Below, in pieces: positions 3,093 through 57,513 of a DNA stretch of 64,000 nt (within the stretch, counting starts at the first letter, position 1; each line of letters starts with the position of its first letter). The notes under the pieces are model-generated. The model saw only the letters and a list, made by a program, of their open reading frames with translations, searched no databases and had not been told where the DNA came from. Made by a program: the position numbers and the translations under genes. The stretch lies in the IMG/VR virus record IMGVR_UViG_3300001282_000006, one strand, 5' to 3'. The stretch is from a virus (lineage: Duplodnaviria; Heunggongvirae; Uroviricota; Caudoviricetes).

Positions 3093-4052
3093 ATGATTAA
3101 AAGATATTTAGAGTTTATAAAAGAAAGTCAAATTAATGGATTCAATTCACTAGGTGAGTGGGTTGAATCTTTAATATCTGATGATTATGTTAGAAACATA
3201 GTAGCTCGTTATACAAAAGATTCTGATGCTTCTATTGATTTATCAAATGCTATTAATATCTTAGATGATAATACTAAAGATGAAATTAAATATCAAATTG
3301 ATAATTATTTACAAAATGGTATTGAAGAAAAAGAACCTGAGTTCTTAGTTTCAACTGATTTAGAAGAATTAACTGAATCTGAGATTACAGTTGCTGGTAA
3401 AGGTATATTTATTTCTTTCTTAAAATCTTTAACCAGTTTAGGTCAAAAAGAAGTGGGTCCAAATTGGTCTAAATCTTCAGATGACTTTTTATTATACTAT
3501 TACTATCCTAATTTACAATCAGAACATGTAAAACAAGTATTTTCAAGATTCAAATCTTTAAGTAGATACTTAGACCATGTTGATTATCAAAAAAATGAAG
3601 TTGATTTATACTTTGGTATCAAATGTGATGGTAATTTTGAATATGGTTTACATTATGATGTACCAACACCAATTGGTCAATTTAAGTTGAATCAATCTGT
3701 TATTAAATGGATTTGTCAAATTGAATCTAAGTCTGCTCATTCATTAAAGAAAGAATTAGTTAATTTAACTTTAGCAGATGTAATTACATTAGGTAAAATT
3801 AAATTAGATATGAAAGAATTCAATCCGGGATATCACGAATCAAAAGATGTTGTGAAAATTCAAGATAAGATTATTTCATTTGGATATAAAGGTTTAGGTA
3901 AATGGGACAACGGTAAATTTGATGAAGGTGAGTTTATGAATATTAAAAATAACTTCACTACTTGGGTAATGACTAAGAGATGGGGTGGTAAAGTTTTAAT
4001 AAGTGTTAAACCAACATCATATTATGTTTACATACATATAAAATTAAAGTAA
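3093..4052 (+). CDS. Hypothetical protein with a T4-CTS-like N-terminal leader (MIKRYLEFIKE|S).
   Basis: 319-aa ORF. TTTAATATATAAC motif lies immediately upstream of the ATG. Confidence 0.7.
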   Translation: MIKRYLEFIKESQINGFNSLGEWVESLISDDYVRNIVARYTKDSDASIDLSNAINILDDNTKDEIKYQIDNYLQNGIEEKEPEFLVSTDLEELTESEITVAGKGIFISFLKSLTSLGQKEVGPNWSKSSDDFLLYYYYPNLQSEHVKQVFSRFKSLSRYLDHVDYQKNEVDLYFGIKCDGNFEYGLHYDVPTPIGQFKLNQSVIKWICQIESKSAHSLKKELVNLTLADVITLGKIKLDMKEFNPGYHESKDVVKIQDKIISFGYKGLGKWDNGKFDEGEFMNIKNNFTTWVMTKRWGGKVLISVKPTSYYVYIHIKLK

Positions 4053-48735: not shown

Positions 48736-50046
48736 ATGAATATAGAATCTCTAGGAAGACAGGCTATAGATAGAATCAAGTCTGAATGGGGCTTGCCCCT
48801 ACATGGATTTGTAGCTGGAGGTGCCATCGCAAACATTGTTTGGGAATTGGTATCAGGTAACAAAGCCGTGGTCAATGATATTGACATCTTTGTTTTTGAT
48901 GGTATTGAAAAGGAATTAGACAATGATAAAAAGTCCCTTTTTAATTATCAAGAAAAAGAAACAAAGTATTATGAAGACTACAATGGTATGAATTTTAATA
49001 ATTATACCAAGGATTTCTATTCTATAGTCGAGTCTGAGAGAGACGATATGTTTAATACGATTAAGTATAAATCAAACACATCAGACCCTTCTTTAATTAT
49101 TAAGTCATTTGATATCAATGCCACTCGAATTGGCTACGATATTGATAATGATAAATTATACTGGACTTCAGAATTTGAAGACTTCTTAAAAACTGGTGAG
49201 TTAAAGATTTCAAATATAATGACACCTTCACATACAGCTGTTAGAATTGCCAAAAAGAGTAAAGAGTTAAATGCTAAGTTGTATGATTTTGAATTTAAGT
49301 TACTTCAATATGCTCTTTCTTATAGATTCATTGATAGAATAAAACTAAGATTTAGAGAAAGGTATTTAGAAATGTGTAAAGATAATAAAGACTTATTATC
49401 ACCATATTTTCAAATGTCAAGAGATTTAGAAGCAGAAGAATATGTATTCACAAAAGTTGGTGAAAAAGTAGAACTTTATTACTTGGTTGCTAGAGATATT
49501 AAAAAAGAAGTAACAGAAGTTCCATTGACTGATAATTTTGAAAAAATAGTTTATAGCAATCTTCCTCAAATATTTGAAGATGATAACATTAATAAGATAT
49601 TTAAATCAACTGACTTCTTATTCTATATGAGAAATATCTATGGCAAGGATCAAAACTTGAAAGATATGTGGTCTAAATTATATTACTTCTTTAATGATGT
49701 TCATTATATTGATAGAGAAGTGAGCCAAGAAGACTTAGACTTATTACAAAGATTTGGTAAATATGCTCCTGGTTCTATTGAGAACTTAAAAGGATTAAAG
49801 ATGTCTGAGCAAATTGAAGTTATTAAAAAGTTCTTAGATAAGTTCAAAGAAGATCCTATTATAGCAATTTCTATTTTAGAAAGTGTTAAGGTAGATAAAG
49901 ATATTATTTTGGATGAACAAACAATGTTATTATTAGAACTTTCTGTTAGAAAAAAGATTGTTAATGATACAAGAGGAAAGGTTAATAAAATACTAAATAT
50001 AGAAGAAGTTATTGACAAGAATAATAATGACATCTGGATGTTTTAA
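48736..50046 (+). CDS. Nucleotidyltransferase-fold protein, possibly a tRNA CCA-adding enzyme.
   Basis: N-terminal GFVAGGAIANIVWELVSGNKAVVNDIDIFVF resembles the CCA-enzyme GGxVRD..LG....DxDxxT motif. Confidence 0.35.
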   Translation: MNIESLGRQAIDRIKSEWGLPLHGFVAGGAIANIVWELVSGNKAVVNDIDIFVFDGIEKELDNDKKSLFNYQEKETKYYEDYNGMNFNNYTKDFYSIVESERDDMFNTIKYKSNTSDPSLIIKSFDINATRIGYDIDNDKLYWTSEFEDFLKTGELKISNIMTPSHTAVRIAKKSKELNAKLYDFEFKLLQYALSYRFIDRIKLRFRERYLEMCKDNKDLLSPYFQMSRDLEAEEYVFTKVGEKVELYYLVARDIKKEVTEVPLTDNFEKIVYSNLPQIFEDDNINKIFKSTDFLFYMRNIYGKDQNLKDMWSKLYYFFNDVHYIDREVSQEDLDLLQRFGKYAPGSIENLKGLKMSEQIEVIKKFLDKFKEDPIIAISILESVKVDKDIILDEQTMLLLELSVRKKIVNDTRGKVNKILNIEEVIDKNNNDIWMF

Positions 50047-50090
50047 ACTTTCTCAATATATTCAATATAAAATAAAAATAAATTATTACG

Positions 50091-50459
50091 ATGATAGCAT
50101 ATATAACAGAATTAAACGGTGAGAACTATGATGATTTCGTTAAAGAAGGTATAGTACTTGTTGATATTTGGGCACCTTGGTGTGGTCCTTGTAAAATGAT
50201 TTCTCCAATTATAGACCAAATTTCTTCAGACTACTTTGAAAAAATCACAGTTGGTAAATGTGATGCTGACGCAAATAGAGATAAAGTTATGGAACTTGGT
50301 GTTAGAAATATTCCAACAATCTTCTTTTATAAAGATGGTCAAATTGTTGAATCTACACACGGGGCGGTAACTAAGAAAAAATTAACTGAAATTATTGATG
50401 GTTTATTAGCACCTGCCGAATCAGTTGATTCTATTGACAACACTGACACTGACTTTTAA
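50091..50459 (+). CDS. trxA: Thioredoxin.
   Basis: WAPWCGPCKMISP active site. Confidence 0.9.
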   Translation: MIAYITELNGENYDDFVKEGIVLVDIWAPWCGPCKMISPIIDQISSDYFEKITVGKCDADANRDKVMELGVRNIPTIFFYKDGQIVESTHGAVTKKKLTEIIDGLLAPAESVDSIDNTDTDF

Positions 50460-50470
50460 AATAAAGTCAA

Positions 50471-51064
50471 ATGAAAAACATTGAATATTTTTTTGAATTA
50501 ATACAAAAATCTGATATATCTCTTTTGGGGTATAGATTCAAGCAGGAAAGACTCAAAGACGAGATTATTTCTAAACTACCTCACTTGGTGGTTCCTGAAA
50601 TAGACTCGTCTTTTTCTTTTAAATCTTTTTTAAGAGATTTGAAACTTCAATCAATTTTAGAAACTGGTAATACTGTAAACAATCCAGAGTATCTTGTTTT
50701 AGATTTAAATGAGATTATATTTAAGTCAGATGATTTAGGAGGTAGACAAAATCAAATAGGAAATATTATTAATAAAATCAGAGAAGATTTATACTCAAAT
50801 TATTCTGATGTTTACCCTCAAACACCACCTTATAAACTTTTAATGTTAACATCACTATATAGTAGTGTAAAGAATGTTGATGATGCTAGTATTACAAATT
50901 TCAAAGGTGGTAGTAAACCAATTTATGTAAGTGATGTGGCTATTGTGATGGAAGAGGAGTCAATGAAAGTAATAAAGAATAGATTTGATGATAACAACAT
51001 TGATATTTCTTACAACAAATTAAAAGATTATAACTATATTTGTAACTATGAAAATAACAACTAA
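50471..51064 (+). CDS. Hypothetical protein.
   Basis: 197-aa ORF. Confidence 0.55.
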   Translation: MKNIEYFFELIQKSDISLLGYRFKQERLKDEIISKLPHLVVPEIDSSFSFKSFLRDLKLQSILETGNTVNNPEYLVLDLNEIIFKSDDLGGRQNQIGNIINKIREDLYSNYSDVYPQTPPYKLLMLTSLYSSVKNVDDASITNFKGGSKPIYVSDVAIVMEEESMKVIKNRFDDNNIDISYNKLKDYNYICNYENNN

Positions 51065-51482
51065 TAGAAAAGCTTATTATGAATACTTTGTGTTGGAAGA
51101 CTTCGACGCAGGTGTAATGCTATTGGGAGCTGAAGTTAAATCAGTTAGAGAAGGCAATGTTTCTATAGTTGATTGTTTTGCTTATATCACTAATGGTGAA
51201 GTTTGGTTAAAGAATATGAAAGTAGCCAGATATAAACAAACACATGTGGCTGAAAAACATGATGAAAGTCGAGATAAGAAATTACTTCTTAATCGAAAAG
51301 AGATTAATAGAATTGAAAAGTTACTTCAAGATAAAGGAACAACTATGGTTCCACTTGAAATATTTACAGCACATAACCGTGTAAAGGTTAAGATTGGTGT
51401 TGTTAAAGGAAAAAAGTTGTACGATAAAAGAGAAACAATCAAAAAAAGAGATATGGATCGAGAGATCCGTCGAACGGTATAA
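51048..51482 (+). CDS. smpB: SsrA-binding protein SmpB.
   Basis: NRKAYYEYFVLEDFDAGVMLLGAEVKSVREG...KKLLLNRKEI...KVKIGVVKGKKLYDKRETIKKRDMDRE aligns along its whole length with bacterial SmpB. Confidence 0.85.
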   Translation: MKITTNRKAYYEYFVLEDFDAGVMLLGAEVKSVREGNVSIVDCFAYITNGEVWLKNMKVARYKQTHVAEKHDESRDKKLLLNRKEINRIEKLLQDKGTTMVPLEIFTAHNRVKVKIGVVKGKKLYDKRETIKKRDMDREIRRTV

Positions 51483-51483
51483 A

Positions 51484-51846
51484 ATGGCTCGTAAATTAAA
51501 AGATATTAAACCTATATTAGAAGATTTAAATAAATCTTTGACAGAAGAAGAAATACTCAAACATCTTATTCTGTTAGTTAAAGGTTTTGATCCAAATCAA
51601 TATAGAGAAGTTATATACAGTAATCCATATTACAAGGCTTTAATACCAGATATTCAAAAAGATATAATTGAAGAGTTGGAAAAAATTAGTAAATCTATAC
51701 AAAATGAGATAGATACAATTGAATCTGATTTAAAAAAAGCCACTATAACATCAGCTAAAGAATTAAAAAAATTGAAAAGTGATTGTTTATCTTTGATATA
51801 TGAAATTGATGAGCGTAAAAAAGAAATTGATTCCTTATCTAAGTAA
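51484..51846 (+). CDS. Hypothetical protein.
   Basis: ATG at 51484 (MARKLKD...). Confidence 0.5.
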   Translation: MARKLKDIKPILEDLNKSLTEEEILKHLILLVKGFDPNQYREVIYSNPYYKALIPDIQKDIIEELEKISKSIQNEIDTIESDLKKATITSAKELKKLKSDCLSLIYEIDERKKEIDSLSK

Positions 51847-53532
51847 AGAATCAATATATCTTTCAATTTGTTTAGCCTTTTTAATATCTTCTAAAACTTC
51901 ATTTCTTCTTCTATCATTATCACATTCATTAATATAATATCTGACATCATTGGTATAATGAAATTCGTTTAGAATATTTCTAGTATAACCAAATGAAAAT
52001 CCTCTTTCACTAGCTAAATTTCTAATAGACCTTAATTTAACCATAATCATTCCCAAATCTTCAATAGTTTGAATGTTTTGTGAAAGTAAATAATTTTTAA
52101 TTTTCTTACCAATTTCTATAAATATTTTAAATATTTCTTTAAGTGGTTCTATATCACTATTATTAACTTCTTTAAGAGACTCATTATATTGTTTTGTATA
52201 ATCTTCAGAATATGAATTCAAACTTTTAAAAGAACTAATTATACTTGAGAGATAGTAATCTCTATCATTTCCATCAGTAGACTTCATCATATCATAAATA
52301 TAACCAGACATACTATCTAAACTATCAAATCCTGGTCTGCCTTTATAAATAGAAATAAAAGCTAAATCACCACAAACAGATTTTATTACCAACTTTTGAA
52401 GATTTTTAAGTTCTTTGATATCTTTATCAATACCCATTTTACCAACAATCGCAGTTAAATATCTTTCAATGTTTGCTCTTTTAATCTGAGAATCGGTCAT
52501 TAATTTAGTAGCACCTTCTCTTGATTCTTCTCTATTTGTTTTAATTTGATTAACTGGAACTTTAACTGATTTAAGTATATCATCAAGCATTAAAACAATT
52601 GAAAAGTCGGATTTTTCAACTAATGTATAATCATCTATTGACCAAGATGTATCACCCCATTCTCTTAAACCATAACTACTATTTAATGGTAAATTGAAGT
52701 CAAGAGGGCTTTCTTTTTCTTCTTCTTTTACTTCTTCTCTTTTAACACCTTCTATATGTAAAGGTTCTTCTGATGGTGTATAAATGTGTAATTTATTATG
52801 GTCAGAACCTGGAGAACTAACTGAACCCATATGCCAAGATCTTGAAAATGGTAAATAACCATCTTCATTTTCTTCACCATCTTCATCTCTCCAATTTCTC
52901 CAACTTTCACCATCTATTTGACCATCTGGTTCACCGCCTCCAGCAACACTTTGAATTCCATGAAGATCACCATATCCATCTCTCCAAATTTTAGCTAAAC
53001 CCATTCTTGACATATCATCTTCATCATCAGAGAATATACCAATTACTAACTGTTTGTGTGTCAAGTCTTCATAATTTTTAAGTGGTGTGAGTTTACCGGT
53101 TTTAATATTTAATCGATTTTTTATATAATCTAATTCATTATTGCTAAAATGTGAATTTCTATTACGACTTCTATTTCTGTTATTATTATATTTGATATAT
53201 GATTTAAAATCCATACTAGTATTACCAGTGCCGGTAAATCCTAAATATCCTTCATCCATTGAAAACCAAAACTTTAAACAATAAATTTCTTTATAATTTT
53301 CAACTCTGTCTACATTTCTAAGTTTAAGAGCTTGATTTCTATTAAGATATTTAACATCTTTATCACTTATCTTATCAATAGGAATATCAAATTGGGTAAT
53401 CAATCTTTTTAATTTATCCTTAAATCTTTCTTTAGAATTAGTATCTACTTTTTTAGCTAAGAACTTCATCATTTTTGATAAAGCATTAGATTCAAAAGCT
53501 TCAAATAACATTAAGTGTTTCATGTTTGACAT
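51835..53532 (-). CDS. Hypothetical protein with a CTS-like leader (MSNMKHLMLFE|AFE|S).
   Basis: 565-aa ORF. AATATATACATT sits directly upstream of the ATG. Confidence 0.7.
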   Translation of the reverse strand: MSNMKHLMLFEAFESNALSKMMKFLAKKVDTNSKERFKDKLKRLITQFDIPIDKISDKDVKYLNRNQALKLRNVDRVENYKEIYCLKFWFSMDEGYLGFTGTGNTSMDFKSYIKYNNNRNRSRNRNSHFSNNELDYIKNRLNIKTGKLTPLKNYEDLTHKQLVIGIFSDDEDDMSRMGLAKIWRDGYGDLHGIQSVAGGGEPDGQIDGESWRNWRDEDGEENEDGYLPFSRSWHMGSVSSPGSDHNKLHIYTPSEEPLHIEGVKREEVKEEEKESPLDFNLPLNSSYGLREWGDTSWSIDDYTLVEKSDFSIVLMLDDILKSVKVPVNQIKTNREESREGATKLMTDSQIKRANIERYLTAIVGKMGIDKDIKELKNLQKLVIKSVCGDLAFISIYKGRPGFDSLDSMSGYIYDMMKSTDGNDRDYYLSSIISSFKSLNSYSEDYTKQYNESLKEVNNSDIEPLKEIFKIFIEIGKKIKNYLLSQNIQTIEDLGMIMVKLRSIRNLASERGFSFGYTRNILNEFHYTNDVRYYINECDNDRRRNEVLEDIKKAKQIERYIDSLLR

Positions 53533-53539
53533 AATGTAT

Positions 53540-54018
53540 ATATTAAAATTTATTTGGTAAATTGAAACTTTCTTTCTACATTTGTATAAGAATTAACCAA
53601 GAGTCGTTAAGACAAGAGCTAAGAAATTAGCGTGTCGAAAGATTTCACATTAATATATGATAAAACCGTGTGAGTCTTAACGAAATTATGGTAGTAAGTA
53701 GCTGTTAAATAAGTTAACACCCTTGTTAAAGCCAGTGAACTACCTTGTAAATATAACTATATAATAATAGTAAGGGTGTAGATATCGAAGTCGTGTTGGT
53801 GATAGATGTCTCAAATAACTAATGATTAAACCCAACTCAAAGAAGATTTTAAACGAGCAGAATGGTAACACTGCTCAACCGAGGCGAAAGCATATTAAAA
53901 GGTAATCCTAAGTGATGAGGTCACTAAAAGTCAAGGTAAGGTTCTCGGATTTCGACCATACTTGACAGACGTTCCACCAATCTTCTTTTTTAATTGTAAA
54001 TAAGTAAATAAAAATAAA
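53540..54018. other. 480-bp ORF-free region that is GC-richer than its surroundings. It is a candidate structured non-coding RNA or regulatory region (tmRNA partner of SmpB, or an origin).
   Basis: No ORF longer than 28 aa in a genome otherwise packed end to end. Local GC is clearly above background. Confidence 0.25.
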
Positions 54019-54423
54019 ATGACACTGAAAGAAAAAATCAACGCAGACTTTATGACAGCATTTAAGTCTAAGAACATGGTAGCAAAAAGCATACTATCTG
54101 TTGTTAAAGGAGAAATTCAAACTGTAGAAAAGAATATTGGTTCTGATAATCTTTCAGATGTTGAGGTAACTAAAATTCTTACAAAAACTGTAAAGTCTCT
54201 TAAAGAAACTATTACATTAAGCAATGACGAAAAATCTAAAGTAGAATTGTCAGTAATTGAAGTTTATCTTCCAACACAAATGTCTAAAGAAGAAGTTACA
54301 GCTAAAGTAACAGAACTTGTTAATTCTGGAATCACACAAATCGGTGCTATTATGAAAGAATTCGCAACTCTTCCAGCTGATAAGAAAATGGTTTCTGAAT
54401 CAATCAAAGAAGTTATTAAGTAG
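54019..54423 (+). CDS. GatB/YqeY-domain protein.
   Basis: MTLKEKINADFMTAFKSKNMVAKSILSVVKGEIQ fits the YqeY family pattern. Confidence 0.7.
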   Translation: MTLKEKINADFMTAFKSKNMVAKSILSVVKGEIQTVEKNIGSDNLSDVEVTKILTKTVKSLKETITLSNDEKSKVELSVIEVYLPTQMSKEEVTAKVTELVNSGITQIGAIMKEFATLPADKKMVSESIKEVIK

Positions 54424-55808: not shown

Positions 55809-55894
55809 GGTGTCGTTATTGTTAATGGAGAATCGAAAGATGAGCATTTAACTCTGTGAAAGTTAAGGTACGGGTTCGAATCCCGTACGACACC
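55809..55894 (+). ncRNA. tRNA-like element with canonical acceptor and T arms. The D and anticodon region is atypical or carries an insertion.
   Basis: GGTGTCG...GTACGGGTTCGAATCCCGTAC-GACACC. The internal region does not fold as a standard D or anticodon arm. Confidence 0.3.
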
Positions 55895-56738: not shown

Positions 56739-56879
56739 GAGAGAGTAGCTCAGTTGGTAGAGCACGTTATTATACTCTGATAAGTATTCTCTGATTACGG
56801 TTAACGTAATTAGTAGTGATGTTAAGAGTTACTTCGGCTGTTAACCGCGTGGTCGTAGGTTCGAGTCCTGCCTCTCTCC
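56739..56879 (+). tRNA. tRNA gene interrupted by a ~65-nt insertion (putative small intron). A possible anticodon arm CGG-CTGTTAA-CCG gives GUU/Asn.
   Basis: Canonical GAGAGAG-TA-GCTCAGTTGGTAGAGC 5' part and GTAGG-TTCGAGT-CCTGC-CTCTCTC-C 3' part, separated by extra sequence containing AGAGTTACTTCG. Confidence 0.4.
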
Positions 56880-56945: not shown

Positions 56946-57073
56946 GGGGATGTAGCTCAGTGGTAGAGAAAACTATCTCTTTTGAAATTTTACCTCGTAA
57001 GAGTGTTGATTGAGAGAGTTACTTCGTATATTTTGAAATTATAAGGTCGTTGGTTCGAATCCAACCATCCCCA
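56946..57073 (+). tRNA. tRNA gene interrupted by a ~55-nt insertion related to the one in 56739..56879.
   Basis: GGGGATG-TA-GCTCAGTGGTAGAG...GTTGG-TTCGAAT-CCAAC-CATCCCC-A. The insert contains GAGAGTTACTTCG and a duplicated TTTTGAAATT. Confidence 0.4.
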
Positions 57074-57338: not shown

Positions 57339-57422
57339 GGAGAGGTAATTTAGCTGGCGCTAAAGCTAGTCTTGAAAACTAGTCGTACCTACGGGTATGG
57401 GGATCGATACCTCACCTCTCCG
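57339..57422 (+). tRNA. tRNA-Ser(UGA), class II.
   Basis: GGAGAGG..CTAGT-CTTGAAA-ACTAG, long variable arm CGTACCTACGG, TGGGG-ATCGATA-CCTCA-CCTCTCC-G. Confidence 0.65.
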
Positions 57423-57427
57423 CAACC

Positions 57428-57513
57428 GGAAGGAGTCCGAATGGACGAGGACACCGCCTTGAAAGCGGCTGGGTCGAAAGGCTTTGGGGGTTCGATTCCC
57501 TCTTCTTCCGCCA
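57428..57513 (+). tRNA. Second class-II tRNA with a UGA anticodon (Ser) and an encoded 3' CCA.
   Basis: GGAAGGA..CCGC-CTTGAAA-GCGG, long variable arm, GGGGG-TTCGATT-CCCTC-TTCTTCC-G-CCA. Confidence 0.55.

What the first reader, a model, noticed from the sequence alone, without database searches (positions are those of the whole stretch)
53540..54018. 480-bp ORF-free, GC-enriched island, a candidate structured RNA
Almost every other intergenic gap in this window is under 80 bp. This region has no ORF longer than 28 aa and a visibly higher G+C than its flanks. It contains segments such as ggtaacactgctcaaccgaggcgaaagc and ggttctcggatttcgaccatacttgacagacgttccacca. Candidate roles are a divergent tmRNA (SmpB lies 2 kb upstream), another ncRNA, or a replication origin. 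I could not fold it into a known family by eye.
Basis: seen in the sequence. Interest (0 to 1): 0.5.

Follow-up and report, generated by a model that had tools for sequence, protein, structure and literature searches.

The report
New structured RNA of huge phages
The gap holds a gene for a folded RNA of about 400 bases that matches no catalogued RNA family. It was found only in giant phages, next to genes for a ribosome-rescue protein and a tRNA-binding-type protein. It is not a tmRNA, and its job is still unknown.

Summary
The 486-bp gap (53533-54018) is real and non-coding in all six frames under any stop-codon reassignment. It encodes a plus-strand RNA of about 400 nt (about 53590-53991) behind a conserved Bacteroidetes-type promoter. 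The RNA has four modules:
- a three-way-junction 5' domain;
- pseudoknot A, which carries an AGUA/GAA (loop-E-like) internal loop;
- pseudoknot B;
- a 150-nt 3' domain closed by helix P1.

I collected more than 70 distinct homologs from huge-phage contigs and lake, marine and sludge metagenomes. None turned up in 185,579 bacterial and archaeal genomes.

Covariation is strong. About 94-95% of cells are paired, against 23-45% in slid controls. 14 of 26 pairs (3' domain) and 18 of 29 pairs (pseudoknots) show compensatory changes.

No Rfam 15 family matches. The tmRNA reading fails: there is no acceptor helix, no T arm, no conserved CCA and no tag ORF.

yqeY lies directly downstream in 73 of 81 loci. 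SmpB lies upstream in 26 of 30, and sometimes abuts the RNA.

My best reading is a new class of stable phage RNA working in the translation module. It may be an RNA partner or mimic for tRNA-binding proteins. A cis-regulatory leader of yqeY is the main rival.

The parts
53553..53584 (+). Bacteroidetes-type promoter: -33 TTTG (53553-53556), 20-nt spacer, -7 TAcaTTTG (53577-53584). The inferred transcription start is about 53589-53593.
   Evidence: The sequence is. A TAnnTTTG box occurs in 60 of 70 distinct homolog upstream regions. 37 of these cluster 260-280 nt before the 3'-domain motif, the same place as in the window. 41 of 70 carry the full TTTG-N17-23-TAnnTTTG. The background rate is 1 box per kb. 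The sigma-70 scan finds no plus-strand site. The start site is inferred, not measured.
53604..53683 (+). 5' domain (M1). A long-range helix, UCGUUAAGAC (53604-53613) with GUCUUAACGA (53674-53683), encloses two variable hairpins.
   Evidence: It is a perfect 10-bp inverted repeat (I6). Compensatory variants are seen by eye in homologs: L017 GUCAUUGAGAC/GUCUCAAUGA, L084 GUCACUAAGAC/GUCUUAGUGA, L018 AUAUCAAAAC/GUUUUGAUGU. The interior is variable. M1 is absent in L002.
53690..53779 (+). Pseudoknot A (M2). Stem a is GGUAG (53690-94) with CUACC (53740-44). Stem e is GCUG (53701-04) with CAGU (53733-36). The two are separated by an internal loop UAAGUA/GAA that contains the AGUA/GAA loop-E (sarcin-ricin-type) motif. 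Stem b is ACACCCUU (53717-24) with AAGGGUGU (53772-79) and crosses a and e.
   Evidence: Counted on alignment A5 (47 sequences). Stems a, e and b are 93-100% paired, and 10 of 17 pairs show changes on both sides. Model R2 finds M2 in all relatives. M2 also occurs alone in L224, L231 and L230. The loop-E assignment rests on sequence pattern only.
53780..53836 (+). Pseudoknot B (M3). Stem d is AGAUAUC (53780-86) with GAUGUCU (53805-11). It is interleaved with stem c, GUUGG (53795-99) with CCAAC (53832-36).
   Evidence: Stem d is 90.5% paired and 6 of 7 pairs show double changes. Stem c is 95.2% paired and 2 of 5 pairs show double changes. In the L014/L055-type homologs a longer, different insert replaces M3.
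53839..53988 (+). 3' domain (M4), 40% GC, a multi-helix junction.
- P1: 53839-48 with 53979-88.
- P2: GAGCAG-AAUGGUAACA-CUGCUC, 53855-76, with a D-arm-like loop.
- P3: 53883-92.
- P5: AGUGAU-GAG-GUCACU, 53911-25.
- P6: GUCAAG (53930-35) with CUUGAC (53961-66).
- P7: 53940-57, enclosed by P6.
- Near-invariant joining strands, including AGACGUUCCA (53967-76).
   Evidence: Counted on alignment A3 (73 distinct sequences). 94.2% of cells are paired, against 23-45% for slid controls. 14 of 26 pairs show double changes. P6 covaries at 6 of 6 pairs and is 100% paired. For P1, the Watson-Crick helix with a sequence's own flank averages 8.7 bp, against 6.2 bp with foreign flanks. P1 is a perfect 10-bp repeat in the window (I7). 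Median nucleotide identity to the window is 88.5%, while the flanking proteins are 39-67% identical. M4 occurs alone in L002.
53986..53991 (+). U-run directly after P1. It is the possible 3' end or attenuation point of the RNA.
   Evidence: A run of at least 4 T within 30 nt after GUUCC is present in 58 of 78 distinct homologs. The consensus scan finds no canonical hairpin terminator. A function as terminator is inferred.
54019..54423 (+). yqeY (GatB/YqeY-domain protein). It is the most constant neighbour and is probably co-transcribed here.
   Evidence: Pfam YqeY E 2e-15; PHROG 1460. yqeY starts within 400 nt downstream of the RNA in 73 of 81 loci. In the window there are only 30 nt and no promoter motif between P1 and the ATG.
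51048..51482 (+). smpB, on the same strand as the RNA, 2.1 kb upstream.
   Evidence: Pfam SmpB E 4e-53. SmpB lies within 4 kb upstream in 26 of 30 loci with enough flank. It ends directly at the RNA's 5' end in L014, L055, L056, L078, L088, L107 and L109.

Best explanation
**Shown.** The gap is the gene for a previously uncatalogued, modular, highly structured non-coding RNA of about 400 nt on the plus strand. The order is promoter, 5' three-way junction, pseudoknot A with a loop-E-type internal loop, pseudoknot B, then a 150-nt multi-helix 3' domain closed by P1 and followed by a U-run. It is conserved in a clade of huge AT-rich phages. The nearest GenBank relatives are the 635-kb and 642-kb Mahaphage genomes, which are predicted to infect Bacteroidetes.

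**Inferred.**
- It is made as a stable RNA in its own right, often on the same transcript as the downstream yqeY.
- It acts in trans within the phage's translation module rather than as a simple on/off leader.
- The most likely mechanism is that the 3' domain presents tRNA-like surfaces and serves as ligand, scaffold or decoy for tRNA-elbow-binding proteins.
- The tRNA-like surfaces are a D-arm-like hairpin with the same AAUGGUAA loop as the phage's own tRNAs, and a GGUUC / GG-N-UU-Y-CGAC element like the T-loop and the tmRNA D-loop.
- The candidate proteins are the ones encoded beside it: YqeY (a GatB-tail-type domain) and possibly SmpB.
- The pseudoknot modules would be separable accessory units.
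For: **It is non-coding.** TAA stops occur in all six frames.

**Structure.**
- 3' domain: 94.2% of cells paired against 23-45% in slid controls; 14 of 26 pairs compensatory; 0 of 500 shuffles reach the observed score.
- Pseudoknots: 94.9% against 34-45%; 18 of 29 pairs compensatory.
- Strand: frequent G-U pairs would be A-C on the minus strand (G-U 42 of 47 at A5 columns 22/66; U-G 68 of 73 in P7).

**Promoter.** It is conserved in position in homologs.

**Conservation.** The RNA core is more conserved than the neighbouring proteins (88.5% nt against 39-67% aa).

**Distribution.**
- 0 hits in 185,579 prokaryote genomes.
- One copy in the complete 634,780-bp genome LR745206.

**Not in Rfam 15.**

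**Independent RNA rather than leader.**
- A full TTTG-N-TAnnTTTG promoter lies between the RNA and yqeY in the L092/L095/L104/L117 group. A TAnnTTTG box alone lies there in L033 and in the IF3-type L056.
- The downstream gene is IF3, a 70-aa ORF or something else in 8 of 81 loci.
- Module M2 alone is followed by a clean intrinsic terminator in L230.
- M4 occurs alone in L002, and M1+M2 alone in L224/L231.
- In other phages the slot just before yqeY is occupied by tRNA genes (L234, L238).

**tRNA-like features.**
- The P2 loop AAUGGUAA matches D-loops of the phage's own tRNAs, for example tRNA-Ile GAGUAAUGGUAACUC.
- The string GG-N-UU-Y-CGAC occurs only 5 times in 634 kb, and 2 of those are tRNA T-loops.

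**Neighbours.** yqeY follows in 73 of 81 loci and SmpB precedes in 26 of 30.
Against: - No transcript data exist. The 5' and 3' ends and the stability of the RNA are all inferred.
- In the window and in most homologs no promoter separates the RNA from yqeY. The ATG follows P1 by 25-40 nt, which is also what a 5'-UTR regulator looks like.
- L002 has promoter, then M4, then 20 nt, then ATG, which looks like a classical leader.
- TAnnTTTG boxes between the RNA and the next gene occur at about the chance rate overall (10 of 78). Only the four to five with the full two-box motif are convincing.
- The tRNA-mimicry idea rests on short sequence resemblances. The helices around them (P7, GGUU/GACC) differ from a T arm or a tmRNA D-loop.
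- No binding to YqeY or SmpB has been tested.
- The SmpB linkage breaks in one subgroup: L092, L095, L104 and L111 have no SmpB within 4-10 kb.
- All homologs come from one phage clade, so conserved gene order may be inheritance rather than function.
- Homologs were collected with an exact 16-22-nt motif in P2. This inflates apparent conservation there.
Confidence: 0.5

Rival explanations
1. It is a cis-acting leader of yqeY, either a riboswitch or a protein-binding autoregulatory 5' UTR. The 3' domain would be a sensor for a small ligand, a tRNA, or YqeY itself binding a tRNA-like operator. Formation of P1 next to the U-run would terminate transcription, or the fold would mask translation of yqeY.
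For: - The RNA is on the same strand and directly upstream of yqeY in 73 of 81 loci.
- In the window only 30 nt and no promoter motif lie between P1 and the ATG.
- P1 is followed by a U-run in 58 of 78 homologs.
- L002 has just promoter, M4 and yqeY.
- The joining strands are near-invariant, as in riboswitch aptamers.
- When yqeY is absent, the next gene is another translation gene, IF3.
- Translation genes are often autoregulated through tRNA or rRNA mimics in their leaders (established knowledge: thrS, r-protein leaders).
Against: - A full promoter sits between the RNA and yqeY in one subgroup, and probable promoters in two more. There the RNA cannot attenuate yqeY transcription.
- In IF3-type loci about 240 nt separate the RNA from infC, and at least L056/L087 carry a promoter motif in that stretch.
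- In L047 and L091 yqeY lies 1.5-2.6 kb away.
- M2 alone ends in its own terminator in L230.
- Four modules totalling about 400 nt are far more than known leaders of a 134-aa gene need.
- No alternative (anti-terminator) pairing was identified.
- No canonical terminator hairpin was found.
Confidence: 0.27
2. It is a highly divergent tmRNA, or a tmRNA-derived partner RNA of the phage SmpB, that acts in ribosome rescue.
For: - SmpB is always on the same strand upstream. In seven loci it ends right where the RNA starts.
- That is the position canonical tmRNA occupies after SmpB in about 30 other viral contigs.
- The complete relative LR745206 has SmpB, 59 tRNAs and no ARAGORN tmRNA, and the D-loop string points to no tmRNA 5' end anywhere else in it.
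- The RNA has serial pseudoknots, as tmRNA does.
- P7 carries GGAUUUCGAC, identical to the D-loop string of a phage permuted tmRNA in L198.
- The 3' tail CUUGAC-AGAC-GUUCC-A(CCA) resembles the GGAC-repeat and acceptor end of tmRNA. This comparison is from memory only.
Against: **Defining features tested and not met.**
- No strand complementary to the invariant GUUCC exists, so there is no acceptor helix and no G3-U70.
- CCA is encoded only in the window and a few homologs.
- There is no T arm. The GGUU/GACC pairing of P7 covaries as a simple hairpin.
- There is no conserved reading frame. The short in-frame stretches vary as helix e requires.

**Searches.**
- All Rfam tmRNA models, including the permuted one, are silent up to E = 10.
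- The same search picks up the divergent permuted tmRNA of L198 at E 4e-4.

**Context.**
- One subgroup has the RNA without a nearby SmpB.
- Many phage SmpB genes have no adjacent RNA at all.
- Phage SmpB could simply use the host tmRNA.
Confidence: 0.06
3. It is a replication origin or another DNA-level element in the divergent intergenic region.
For: - The gap lies between divergently transcribed genes.
- Cumulative GC skew has a local minimum near 53400-53550.
Against: - The skew change coincides with the switch of coding strand and is only local.
- There are no iterons, DnaA-box arrays or AT-rich unwinding repeats. The repeats found are two RNA helices and short chance matches.
- Sequence variation follows RNA base-pairing rules, including G-U pairs on one strand only.
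- The element keeps its orientation relative to yqeY and SmpB in loci that lack the divergent gene.
Confidence: 0.01
4. It is a small protein gene hidden in the gap.
For: The gap holds minus-strand ORFs of 33, 43 and 53 aa and a plus-strand ORF of 27 aa.
Against: - Stops are dense in all frames.
- Homologs differ by indels that are not multiples of three and by paired compensatory substitutions.
- None of the ORFs is preserved across the alignment.
Confidence: 0.01

Closest known systems
tmRNA (ssrA), standard and permuted two-piece forms
   Same: - It lies next to smpB on the same strand.
- It is several hundred nucleotides long and has serial H-type pseudoknots.
- It contains the string GG-N-UU-Y-CGAC found in the tmRNA D-loop.
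- In the window only, it ends ...UCCACCA.
   Different: - There is no acceptor helix, T arm, conserved CCA, G3-U70 or tag ORF.
- The 5' and 3' ends do not pair.
- No Rfam tmRNA model or ARAGORN detects it.
- The D-loop-like string sits inside a covarying hairpin.
GOLLD and ROOL (large ornate phage-associated ncRNAs of unknown function, often near tRNA genes)
   Same: - It is a large, elaborately folded RNA encoded by phages.
- It lies close to a tRNA array, which starts 1.9 kb downstream.
- It is known only from comparative genomics, and its function is unknown.
   Different: - There is no sequence or structure match; the Rfam GOLLD and ROOL models are silent.
- It is smaller, about 400 nt against about 580-800 nt.
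- It has a different host range: huge phages predicted to infect Bacteroidetes.
- It is tightly linked to yqeY and smpB.
tRNA and tRNA-like modules (for example bacterial Y RNA YrlA, viral tRNA-like structures)
   Same: - The P2 hairpin has a D-arm-like stem and the loop AAUGGUAA, as in the phage's own tRNAs.
- A GGUUC element is present.
- A closing helix (P1) joins the two ends of the domain.
- In other phages the same slot before yqeY holds real tRNA genes.
   Different: - It is not a cloverleaf.
- 5-7 nt lie between P1 and P2, where a tRNA has 2.
- There is no anticodon arm and no T arm next to the closing helix.
- 12 nt (AGACGUUCCACC) lie between the last helix and P1.
- ARAGORN and the Rfam tRNA model do not call it.
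Autoregulatory leaders and riboswitches of translation genes (thrS operator, r-protein leaders, T-box)
   Same: - It sits in the 5' region of a translation-related gene.
- It has highly conserved joining strands.
- It may mimic tRNA.
- A U-run follows the closing helix.
   Different: - It is much larger and modular.
- Its modules occur separately, with their own terminator or promoter.
- The downstream gene is not constant.
- In some phages a promoter lies between the RNA and the gene.
- No T-box or other leader model matches.
Loop E / sarcin-ricin (bulged-G) motif
   Same: The internal loop UAAGUA/GAA between stems a and e of pseudoknot A contains the AGUA/GAA signature. It is nearly invariant in the homologs that carry pseudoknot A; L224/L231 and L230 depart from it.
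   Different: The assignment rests on sequence pattern only. L230 has a longer variant, UAAUACAUA/GAA. No structural or protein-binding evidence exists.

Membership tests
tmRNA (RF00023 and clan; permuted RF04321) | An acceptor helix formed by the 5' end and the strand just before the 3' CCA, with a G3-U70 pair. | tested here: not met
   The invariant GUUCC(A) has no complementary GGRRC strand anywhere in the RNA. The ends of the transcript do not pair. P1 closes only the 3' domain and lies 3' of GUUCCA.
tmRNA (RF00023 and clan; permuted RF04321) | A T arm (5-bp stem, UUCRANY loop) next to the acceptor 3' strand. | tested here: not met
   No T-loop pattern occurs in the region. The GGUUC element belongs to P7, whose GGUU/GACC pairing covaries (U-A to C-G in 5 sequences).
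tmRNA (RF00023 and clan; permuted RF04321) | A tag reading frame with a resume codon and a conserved C-terminal tag followed by a stop. | tested here: not met
   No frame is conserved. Candidate 2-4-codon stretches before UAA in pseudoknot A change as helix e requires (GCUG/CAGU to GGUG/CACU to GUCA/UGAC).
tmRNA (RF00023 and clan; permuted RF04321) | Detection by the family covariance models or by ARAGORN. | tested here: not met
   ARAGORN finds none. Rfam finds none at the gathering threshold or at E up to 10 in the window, or E up to 5 in 10 homolog loci. As a positive control, the L198 permuted tmRNA is seen at E 4e-4.
tmRNA (RF00023 and clan; permuted RF04321) | Binding to SmpB and charging with alanine. 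| not testable with these tools
   Only genomic linkage is available: SmpB lies upstream in 26 of 30 loci and abuts the RNA in 7.
tRNA | Cloverleaf with acceptor, D, anticodon and T arms at standard spacing. | tested here: not met
   Neither ARAGORN nor Rfam RF00005 calls it. Only P2 resembles a D arm.
Riboswitch or cis-regulatory leader | Always in the 5' UTR of the regulated gene, with no promoter in between. | tested here: inconclusive
   This holds for the window and for most loci (73 of 81 have yqeY within 400 nt). A full promoter intervenes in the L092/L095/L104/L117 group and a probable one in the L033 and L056 groups. 8 of 81 loci have another gene or a distant gene downstream.
Riboswitch or cis-regulatory leader | An expression platform: mutually exclusive terminator and anti-terminator, or a structure that masks the start site. 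| tested here: inconclusive
   P1 is followed by a U-run in 58 of 78 homologs. There is no canonical terminator hairpin. I did not search systematically for alternative pairings.
GOLLD / ROOL-type large phage ncRNA | A match to the family consensus structure. | tested here: not met
   No Rfam hit. Only the general character is shared: a large ornate phage RNA near tRNA genes.
Replication origin | Iterons or initiator-binding repeats, an AT-rich unwinding element and a genome-scale skew switch. | tested here: not met
   No repeat arrays. The skew change is local and coincides with the change of gene strand.
Conserved structured ncRNA (generic) | Compensatory base changes in several helices, well above the controls, in many independent sequences. 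| tested here: met
   32 of 55 pairs show changes on both sides. 94-95% of cells are paired against 23-45% when partners are slid. 0 of 500 shuffles reach the observed covariation score.

The most novel reading that the evidence does not exclude
The RNA is the dedicated partner of the phage SmpB, and perhaps YqeY, in a ribosome-directed function that does not need a charged acceptor end. It would be a descendant or analogue of tmRNA that has lost the acceptor helix, T arm and tag ORF. It would keep a D-loop-like SmpB/elbow-binding element and serial pseudoknots. Huge phages would use it to occupy, rescue or reprogram host ribosomes during infection.
Probability: 0.07. Interest if true: 0.9.

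Novelty: categorically new. Interest (0 to 1): 0.72.

Why it matters
Large, intricately folded RNAs with conserved pseudoknots and near-invariant joining strands are rare. Almost all known classes carry out central functions, such as ribozymes, riboswitches, tmRNA and RNase P.

This one is a new class. It is confined to the largest known phages and is better conserved than the proteins around it. It sits inside a cluster of translation genes: SmpB, YqeY, IF3 in some relatives, and tRNA arrays.

If it binds SmpB or YqeY, it would show a new way for phages to take over or protect the translation machinery. It would also give YqeY, a widespread protein of unknown function, its first RNA ligand.

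Even without a known function, it is well defined. It has an alignment, two covariance models and clear module boundaries, so it is ready for structure determination and biochemistry.

The 'categorically new' label applies to the RNA family. The function is not established, and the RNA may yet prove to be a regulatory leader.

Tried and rejected
- **Alternative genetic code hiding an ORF:** rejected. TAA stops are present in all six frames.
- **Rfam:** no relevant hit at the gathering threshold, at relaxed thresholds on the window, or on 10 homolog loci. Only chance eukaryotic families appear, at E 0.09-1.8.
- **ARAGORN tmRNA and tRNA search:** nothing in the window, the homolog loci or the whole 634-kb relative.
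- **Acceptor partner of GUUCC and a conserved CCA:** none found.
- **Hammerhead-like GUGAUGAG, RNase P CR-I/CR-V-like AAAGUC and ACAGA, T-arm reading of GGUUC:** considered by eye and dropped. The motifs are not conserved in L002, or the covarying helices (P5, P6, P7) contradict the required pairings.
- **Mutual-information scan for extra tertiary pairs in the 3' domain:** the only strong signal is two alternative forms of P3. No partner was found for the variable dinucleotide in CAG-NN-GUUCC.
- **P1 significance by simple shuffling:** the test was weak, because one strand is purine-rich and the other pyrimidine-rich. I replaced it with an own-flank versus foreign-flank comparison.
- **Covariance searches near 80 viral SmpB genes and 54 viral YqeY genes:** models R1 and R2 hit only the same phage clade.
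- **Neighbour proteins (565, 150, 197, 436, 168, 70 aa):** no informative Pfam, NCBIfam, PHROG or PDB match.
- **Literature:** no description of this RNA was found. The catalogue of 10,006 viral candidate RNAs could not be checked because its supplements are not held.
- **Repeat and origin scan:** negative.
Full report
**1. What is in the sequence**

The gap runs from 53533 to 54018 (486 bp). On one side is a 565-aa ORF of unknown function on the minus strand (51835-53532). On the other is a 134-aa YqeY-domain gene on the plus strand (54019-54423; Pfam E 2e-15). SmpB is confirmed at 51048-51482 (E 4e-53).

All six frames of the gap hold 7-21 stop codons, and every frame includes TAA. No stop-codon reassignment can turn the gap into a gene. 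The few listed ORFs are 27-53 aa, and none is preserved in relatives.

The gap as a whole is not GC-rich: 31.3% against 29.9% for the window. Only the last 150 nt (53839-53988) stand out at 40%, while the first 300 nt are 29.4%. In a crude gene model it is the second-largest gap in the window, after the tRNA array. The median gap is 24 bp.

**2. Where the window comes from**

The window is a 30%-GC huge phage. The only GenBank phage records with similar DNA are LR745206 (634,780 bp) and LR756502 (642,428 bp). These sizes match two of the four largest genomes in Al-Shayeb et al. 2020, which that paper places in the Mahaphage clade and predicts to infect Bacteroidetes (PMC7162821). A lake metagenome contig, Ga0214919_10000553 (L085), is nearly identical to the window in this region.

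**3. Homologs**

- Exact-motif scans of IMG/VR gave ten distinct relatives on contigs of up to 476 kb.
- A 22-position degenerate motif gave 80 metagenome loci, which is the cap, from lake, marine, sludge and other samples.
- The same motif gave no hit in one genome for each of 185,579 bacterial and archaeal species.
- After removing duplicates there are 73 distinct 3' domains.
- The complete genome LR745206 carries the element once.

**4. Structure**

The RNA is modular.

*3' domain (M4, 53839-53988).* Helix P1 closes a junction that carries:
- P2, GAGCAG-AAUGGUAACA-CUGCUC;
- a short, variable P3;
- P5;
- P6, which encloses P7;
- near-invariant A-rich joining strands and the invariant tail AGRMGUUCCA.

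On 73 sequences, 94.2% of cells are standard pairs, against 23-45% when partners are slid by 1-3 columns. 14 of 26 pairs have changes on both sides. All six pairs of P6 covary with 100% pairing. No shuffle out of 500 reaches the observed covariation score.

P1 is purine-rich on one strand and pyrimidine-rich on the other, so a shuffle test is weak. A sequence's own flanks form Watson-Crick helices of 8.7 bp on average, against 6.2 bp with foreign flanks. Clearly non-homopurine variants also exist: UAUGAAGA/UCUUCAUA, AUGAAGGC/GCCUUCAU and AUGGAG/CUCCAU.

*Upstream modules.* Two H-type pseudoknots lie upstream, A at 53690-53779 and B at 53780-53836. Before them is a three-way-junction domain closed by a perfect 10-bp helix (53604-13 with 53674-83). 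On 47 sequences, 94.9% of cells are paired against 34-45% for slid controls, and 18 of 29 pairs have double changes. Pseudoknot A contains an almost invariant internal loop, UAAGUA/GAA. This carries the AGUA/GAA signature of loop-E (sarcin-ricin-type) motifs. That assignment is by pattern only.

*Strand.* Abundant G-U pairs would be A-C mismatches on the other strand, so the plus strand is the functional one.

**5. Transcription signals**

Upstream lies TTTG-N20-TAcaTTTG (53553-53584), the two-box promoter type of Bacteroidetes (established knowledge). A TAnnTTTG box is present in 60 of 70 distinct homolog upstream regions. It clusters at the same distance from the 3' domain as in the window. 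The background is one box per kb. The sigma-70 consensus scan finds nothing on the plus strand.

P1 is followed by a U-run (53986-53991). 58 of 78 homologs have one. There is no canonical hairpin terminator.

The RNA is therefore about 400 nt, from about 53590 to 53991. The ends are inferred.

**6. It is not a known family**

Rfam 15 gives only tRNAs at the gathering threshold. With relaxed thresholds it gives nothing meaningful in the region or in ten homolog loci. ARAGORN finds no tmRNA.

The tmRNA hypothesis fails on its defining features:
- The ACCA after GUUCC in the window is not conserved. Homologs read GUUCCAAAC, GUUCCUCUU and GUUCCCUCC.
- Nothing in the RNA is complementary to GUUCC.
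- There is no T arm. GGUUC is part of P7, whose pairing covaries.
- No reading frame is conserved.

As a positive control, the same Rfam search detects a divergent permuted tmRNA next to SmpB in another AT-rich phage contig, L198, which ARAGORN had missed.

**7. Genomic context**

*yqeY.* It begins within 400 nt downstream in 73 of 81 loci. The exceptions have IF3 (L014, L056 and their duplicates), a 70-aa ORF (L108), or yqeY 1.5-2.6 kb away.

*SmpB.* It lies within 4 kb upstream on the same strand in 26 of 30 loci with enough flank. Where the minus-strand 565-aa gene and a 150-aa gene are absent, SmpB ends directly at the 5' end of the RNA (L014, L055, L056, L078, L088, L107, L109). That is exactly where canonical tmRNA sits after SmpB in about 30 other viral contigs. 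One subgroup (L092, L095, L104, L111) has no SmpB within 4-10 kb and unrelated sugar-metabolism genes upstream.

*LR745206.* It has SmpB, 59 tRNAs and no ARAGORN tmRNA. Its only matches to the tmRNA D-loop string are this RNA, two tRNA T-loops and two unrelated sites.

**8. The modules are separable**

- L002 (LR756502) has only promoter, 3' domain and yqeY.
- L224 and L231 have the 5' domain and pseudoknot A but no pseudoknot B or 3' domain.
- L230 has SmpB, then a pseudoknot-A-like RNA ending in a clean intrinsic terminator (GGUCGGAUUUAUCCGACC plus U-run), then a 91-aa ORF, then yqeY.
- In the L092/L095/L104/L117 group a full two-box promoter lies between the RNA and yqeY. A TAnnTTTG box alone lies in that position in the L033 and L056 groups.
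- In more distant phages, tRNA genes occupy the position just before yqeY (L234, L238).

**9. Interpretation**

The shown facts are a conserved, strand-specific, multi-pseudoknot RNA of a new family, encoded once per genome in a clade of huge phages and embedded in their translation-gene cluster.

I infer that it is a stable RNA product rather than only a leader. Its modules can carry their own terminator or be separated from yqeY by a promoter. The downstream gene is not constant. Real stable RNA genes occupy the same slot in other phages.

The proposed mechanism is the weakest step. The P2 loop AAUGGUAA equals the D-loops of the phage's own tRNAs. P7 carries GGUUC and GG-N-UU-Y-CGAC, strings typical of T-loops and of the tmRNA D-loop that SmpB contacts (established knowledge for tmRNA; the resemblance is). 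The two constant neighbours are a GatB-tail-type protein and SmpB. The GatB tail binds the tRNA D-loop and elbow in GatCAB (established knowledge). So I propose that the 3' domain offers a tRNA-elbow-like surface to these proteins. This is a lead, not a tested result.

The main rival is a cis-acting leader of yqeY. It fits the window itself and L002 well, and I give it about one chance in four.

**10. Caveats**

- Homologs were collected with exact motifs in P2, so conservation there is partly forced and more divergent members are missed. L222, found only through YqeY, shows that they exist.
- All members belong to one clade, so synteny may be inherited rather than selected.
- The alignments come from MAFFT and the structure from my reading of them. 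The slid controls are fair, but the shuffles ignore phylogeny.
- There are no expression data.
- I found no prior description in the searchable literature, but one large catalogue of viral candidate RNAs could not be checked.

Noticed in passing
window 56739-56879 and 56946-57073: Two tRNA genes of 141 and 128 nt are found by Rfam but not by ARAGORN. Each carries an insert of about 60-70 nt in the anticodon region, and the two inserts share GAGTTACTTCG. They look like intron-containing phage tRNAs.
   Followed up: partly
window 57339-57427, 57430-57513, and T arms near 55872 and 56256: Further tRNA-like genes are called by neither ARAGORN nor Rfam at the gathering threshold. Two have long variable arms. 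One ends GGGGGTTCGATTCCCTCTTCTTCCGCCA, with an encoded CCA. The tRNA array is therefore larger than the tools report.
   Followed up: partly
L198 about 3360-3700 (IMGVR_UViG_3300033552_000059): SmpB is followed by two tRNAs and then a permuted two-piece tmRNA: T arm, CGGGTCC-A, loop, GGGCCCG-AAA-GGATTTCGAC. ARAGORN misses it. Rfam tmRNA_permuted sees it only weakly (30.7 bits, E 4e-4). Phage tmRNAs can escape standard annotation.
   Followed up: partly
L230 1021-1150; L224/L231 1365-1475; L002 2829-2987: The RNA occurs in reduced forms. Pseudoknot A alone has its own intrinsic terminator after SmpB (L230). The 5' domain plus pseudoknot A occur alone before yqeY (L224, L231). The 3' domain occurs alone (L002).
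   Followed up: yes
L014/L020/L077 (198-225 kb contigs), L056, L087: In a sister group of phages the gene order is S-adenosylhomocysteine hydrolase, SmpB, the RNA, then translation initiation factor IF3, with no yqeY in between. About 240 nt of further non-coding sequence lie before infC and were not analysed.
   Followed up: partly
window 53940-53978 (P7 and the 3' tail): GGAUUUCGAC is identical to the D-loop string of the L198 tmRNA. The tail CUUGAC-AGAC-GUUCC-ACCA resembles, from memory, the GGAC repeats and acceptor end of tmRNA with the T arm removed. It could be a chance match, convergence or a relic of descent. This is unexplained.
   Followed up: partly
L234 and L238, just upstream of yqeY: In more distant phages yqeY sits 10-20 nt downstream of a tRNA gene. 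This suggests that phage yqeY is generally co-transcribed with stable RNA genes.
   Followed up: no
window 48736-51846 and homologs: A conserved gene string precedes the RNA in most relatives: a 436-aa protein, thioredoxin, a 197-aa protein, SmpB and a 150-aa protein. The 436-, 197- and 150-aa proteins have no informative match in Pfam, NCBIfam, PHROGs or PDB.
   Followed up: partly
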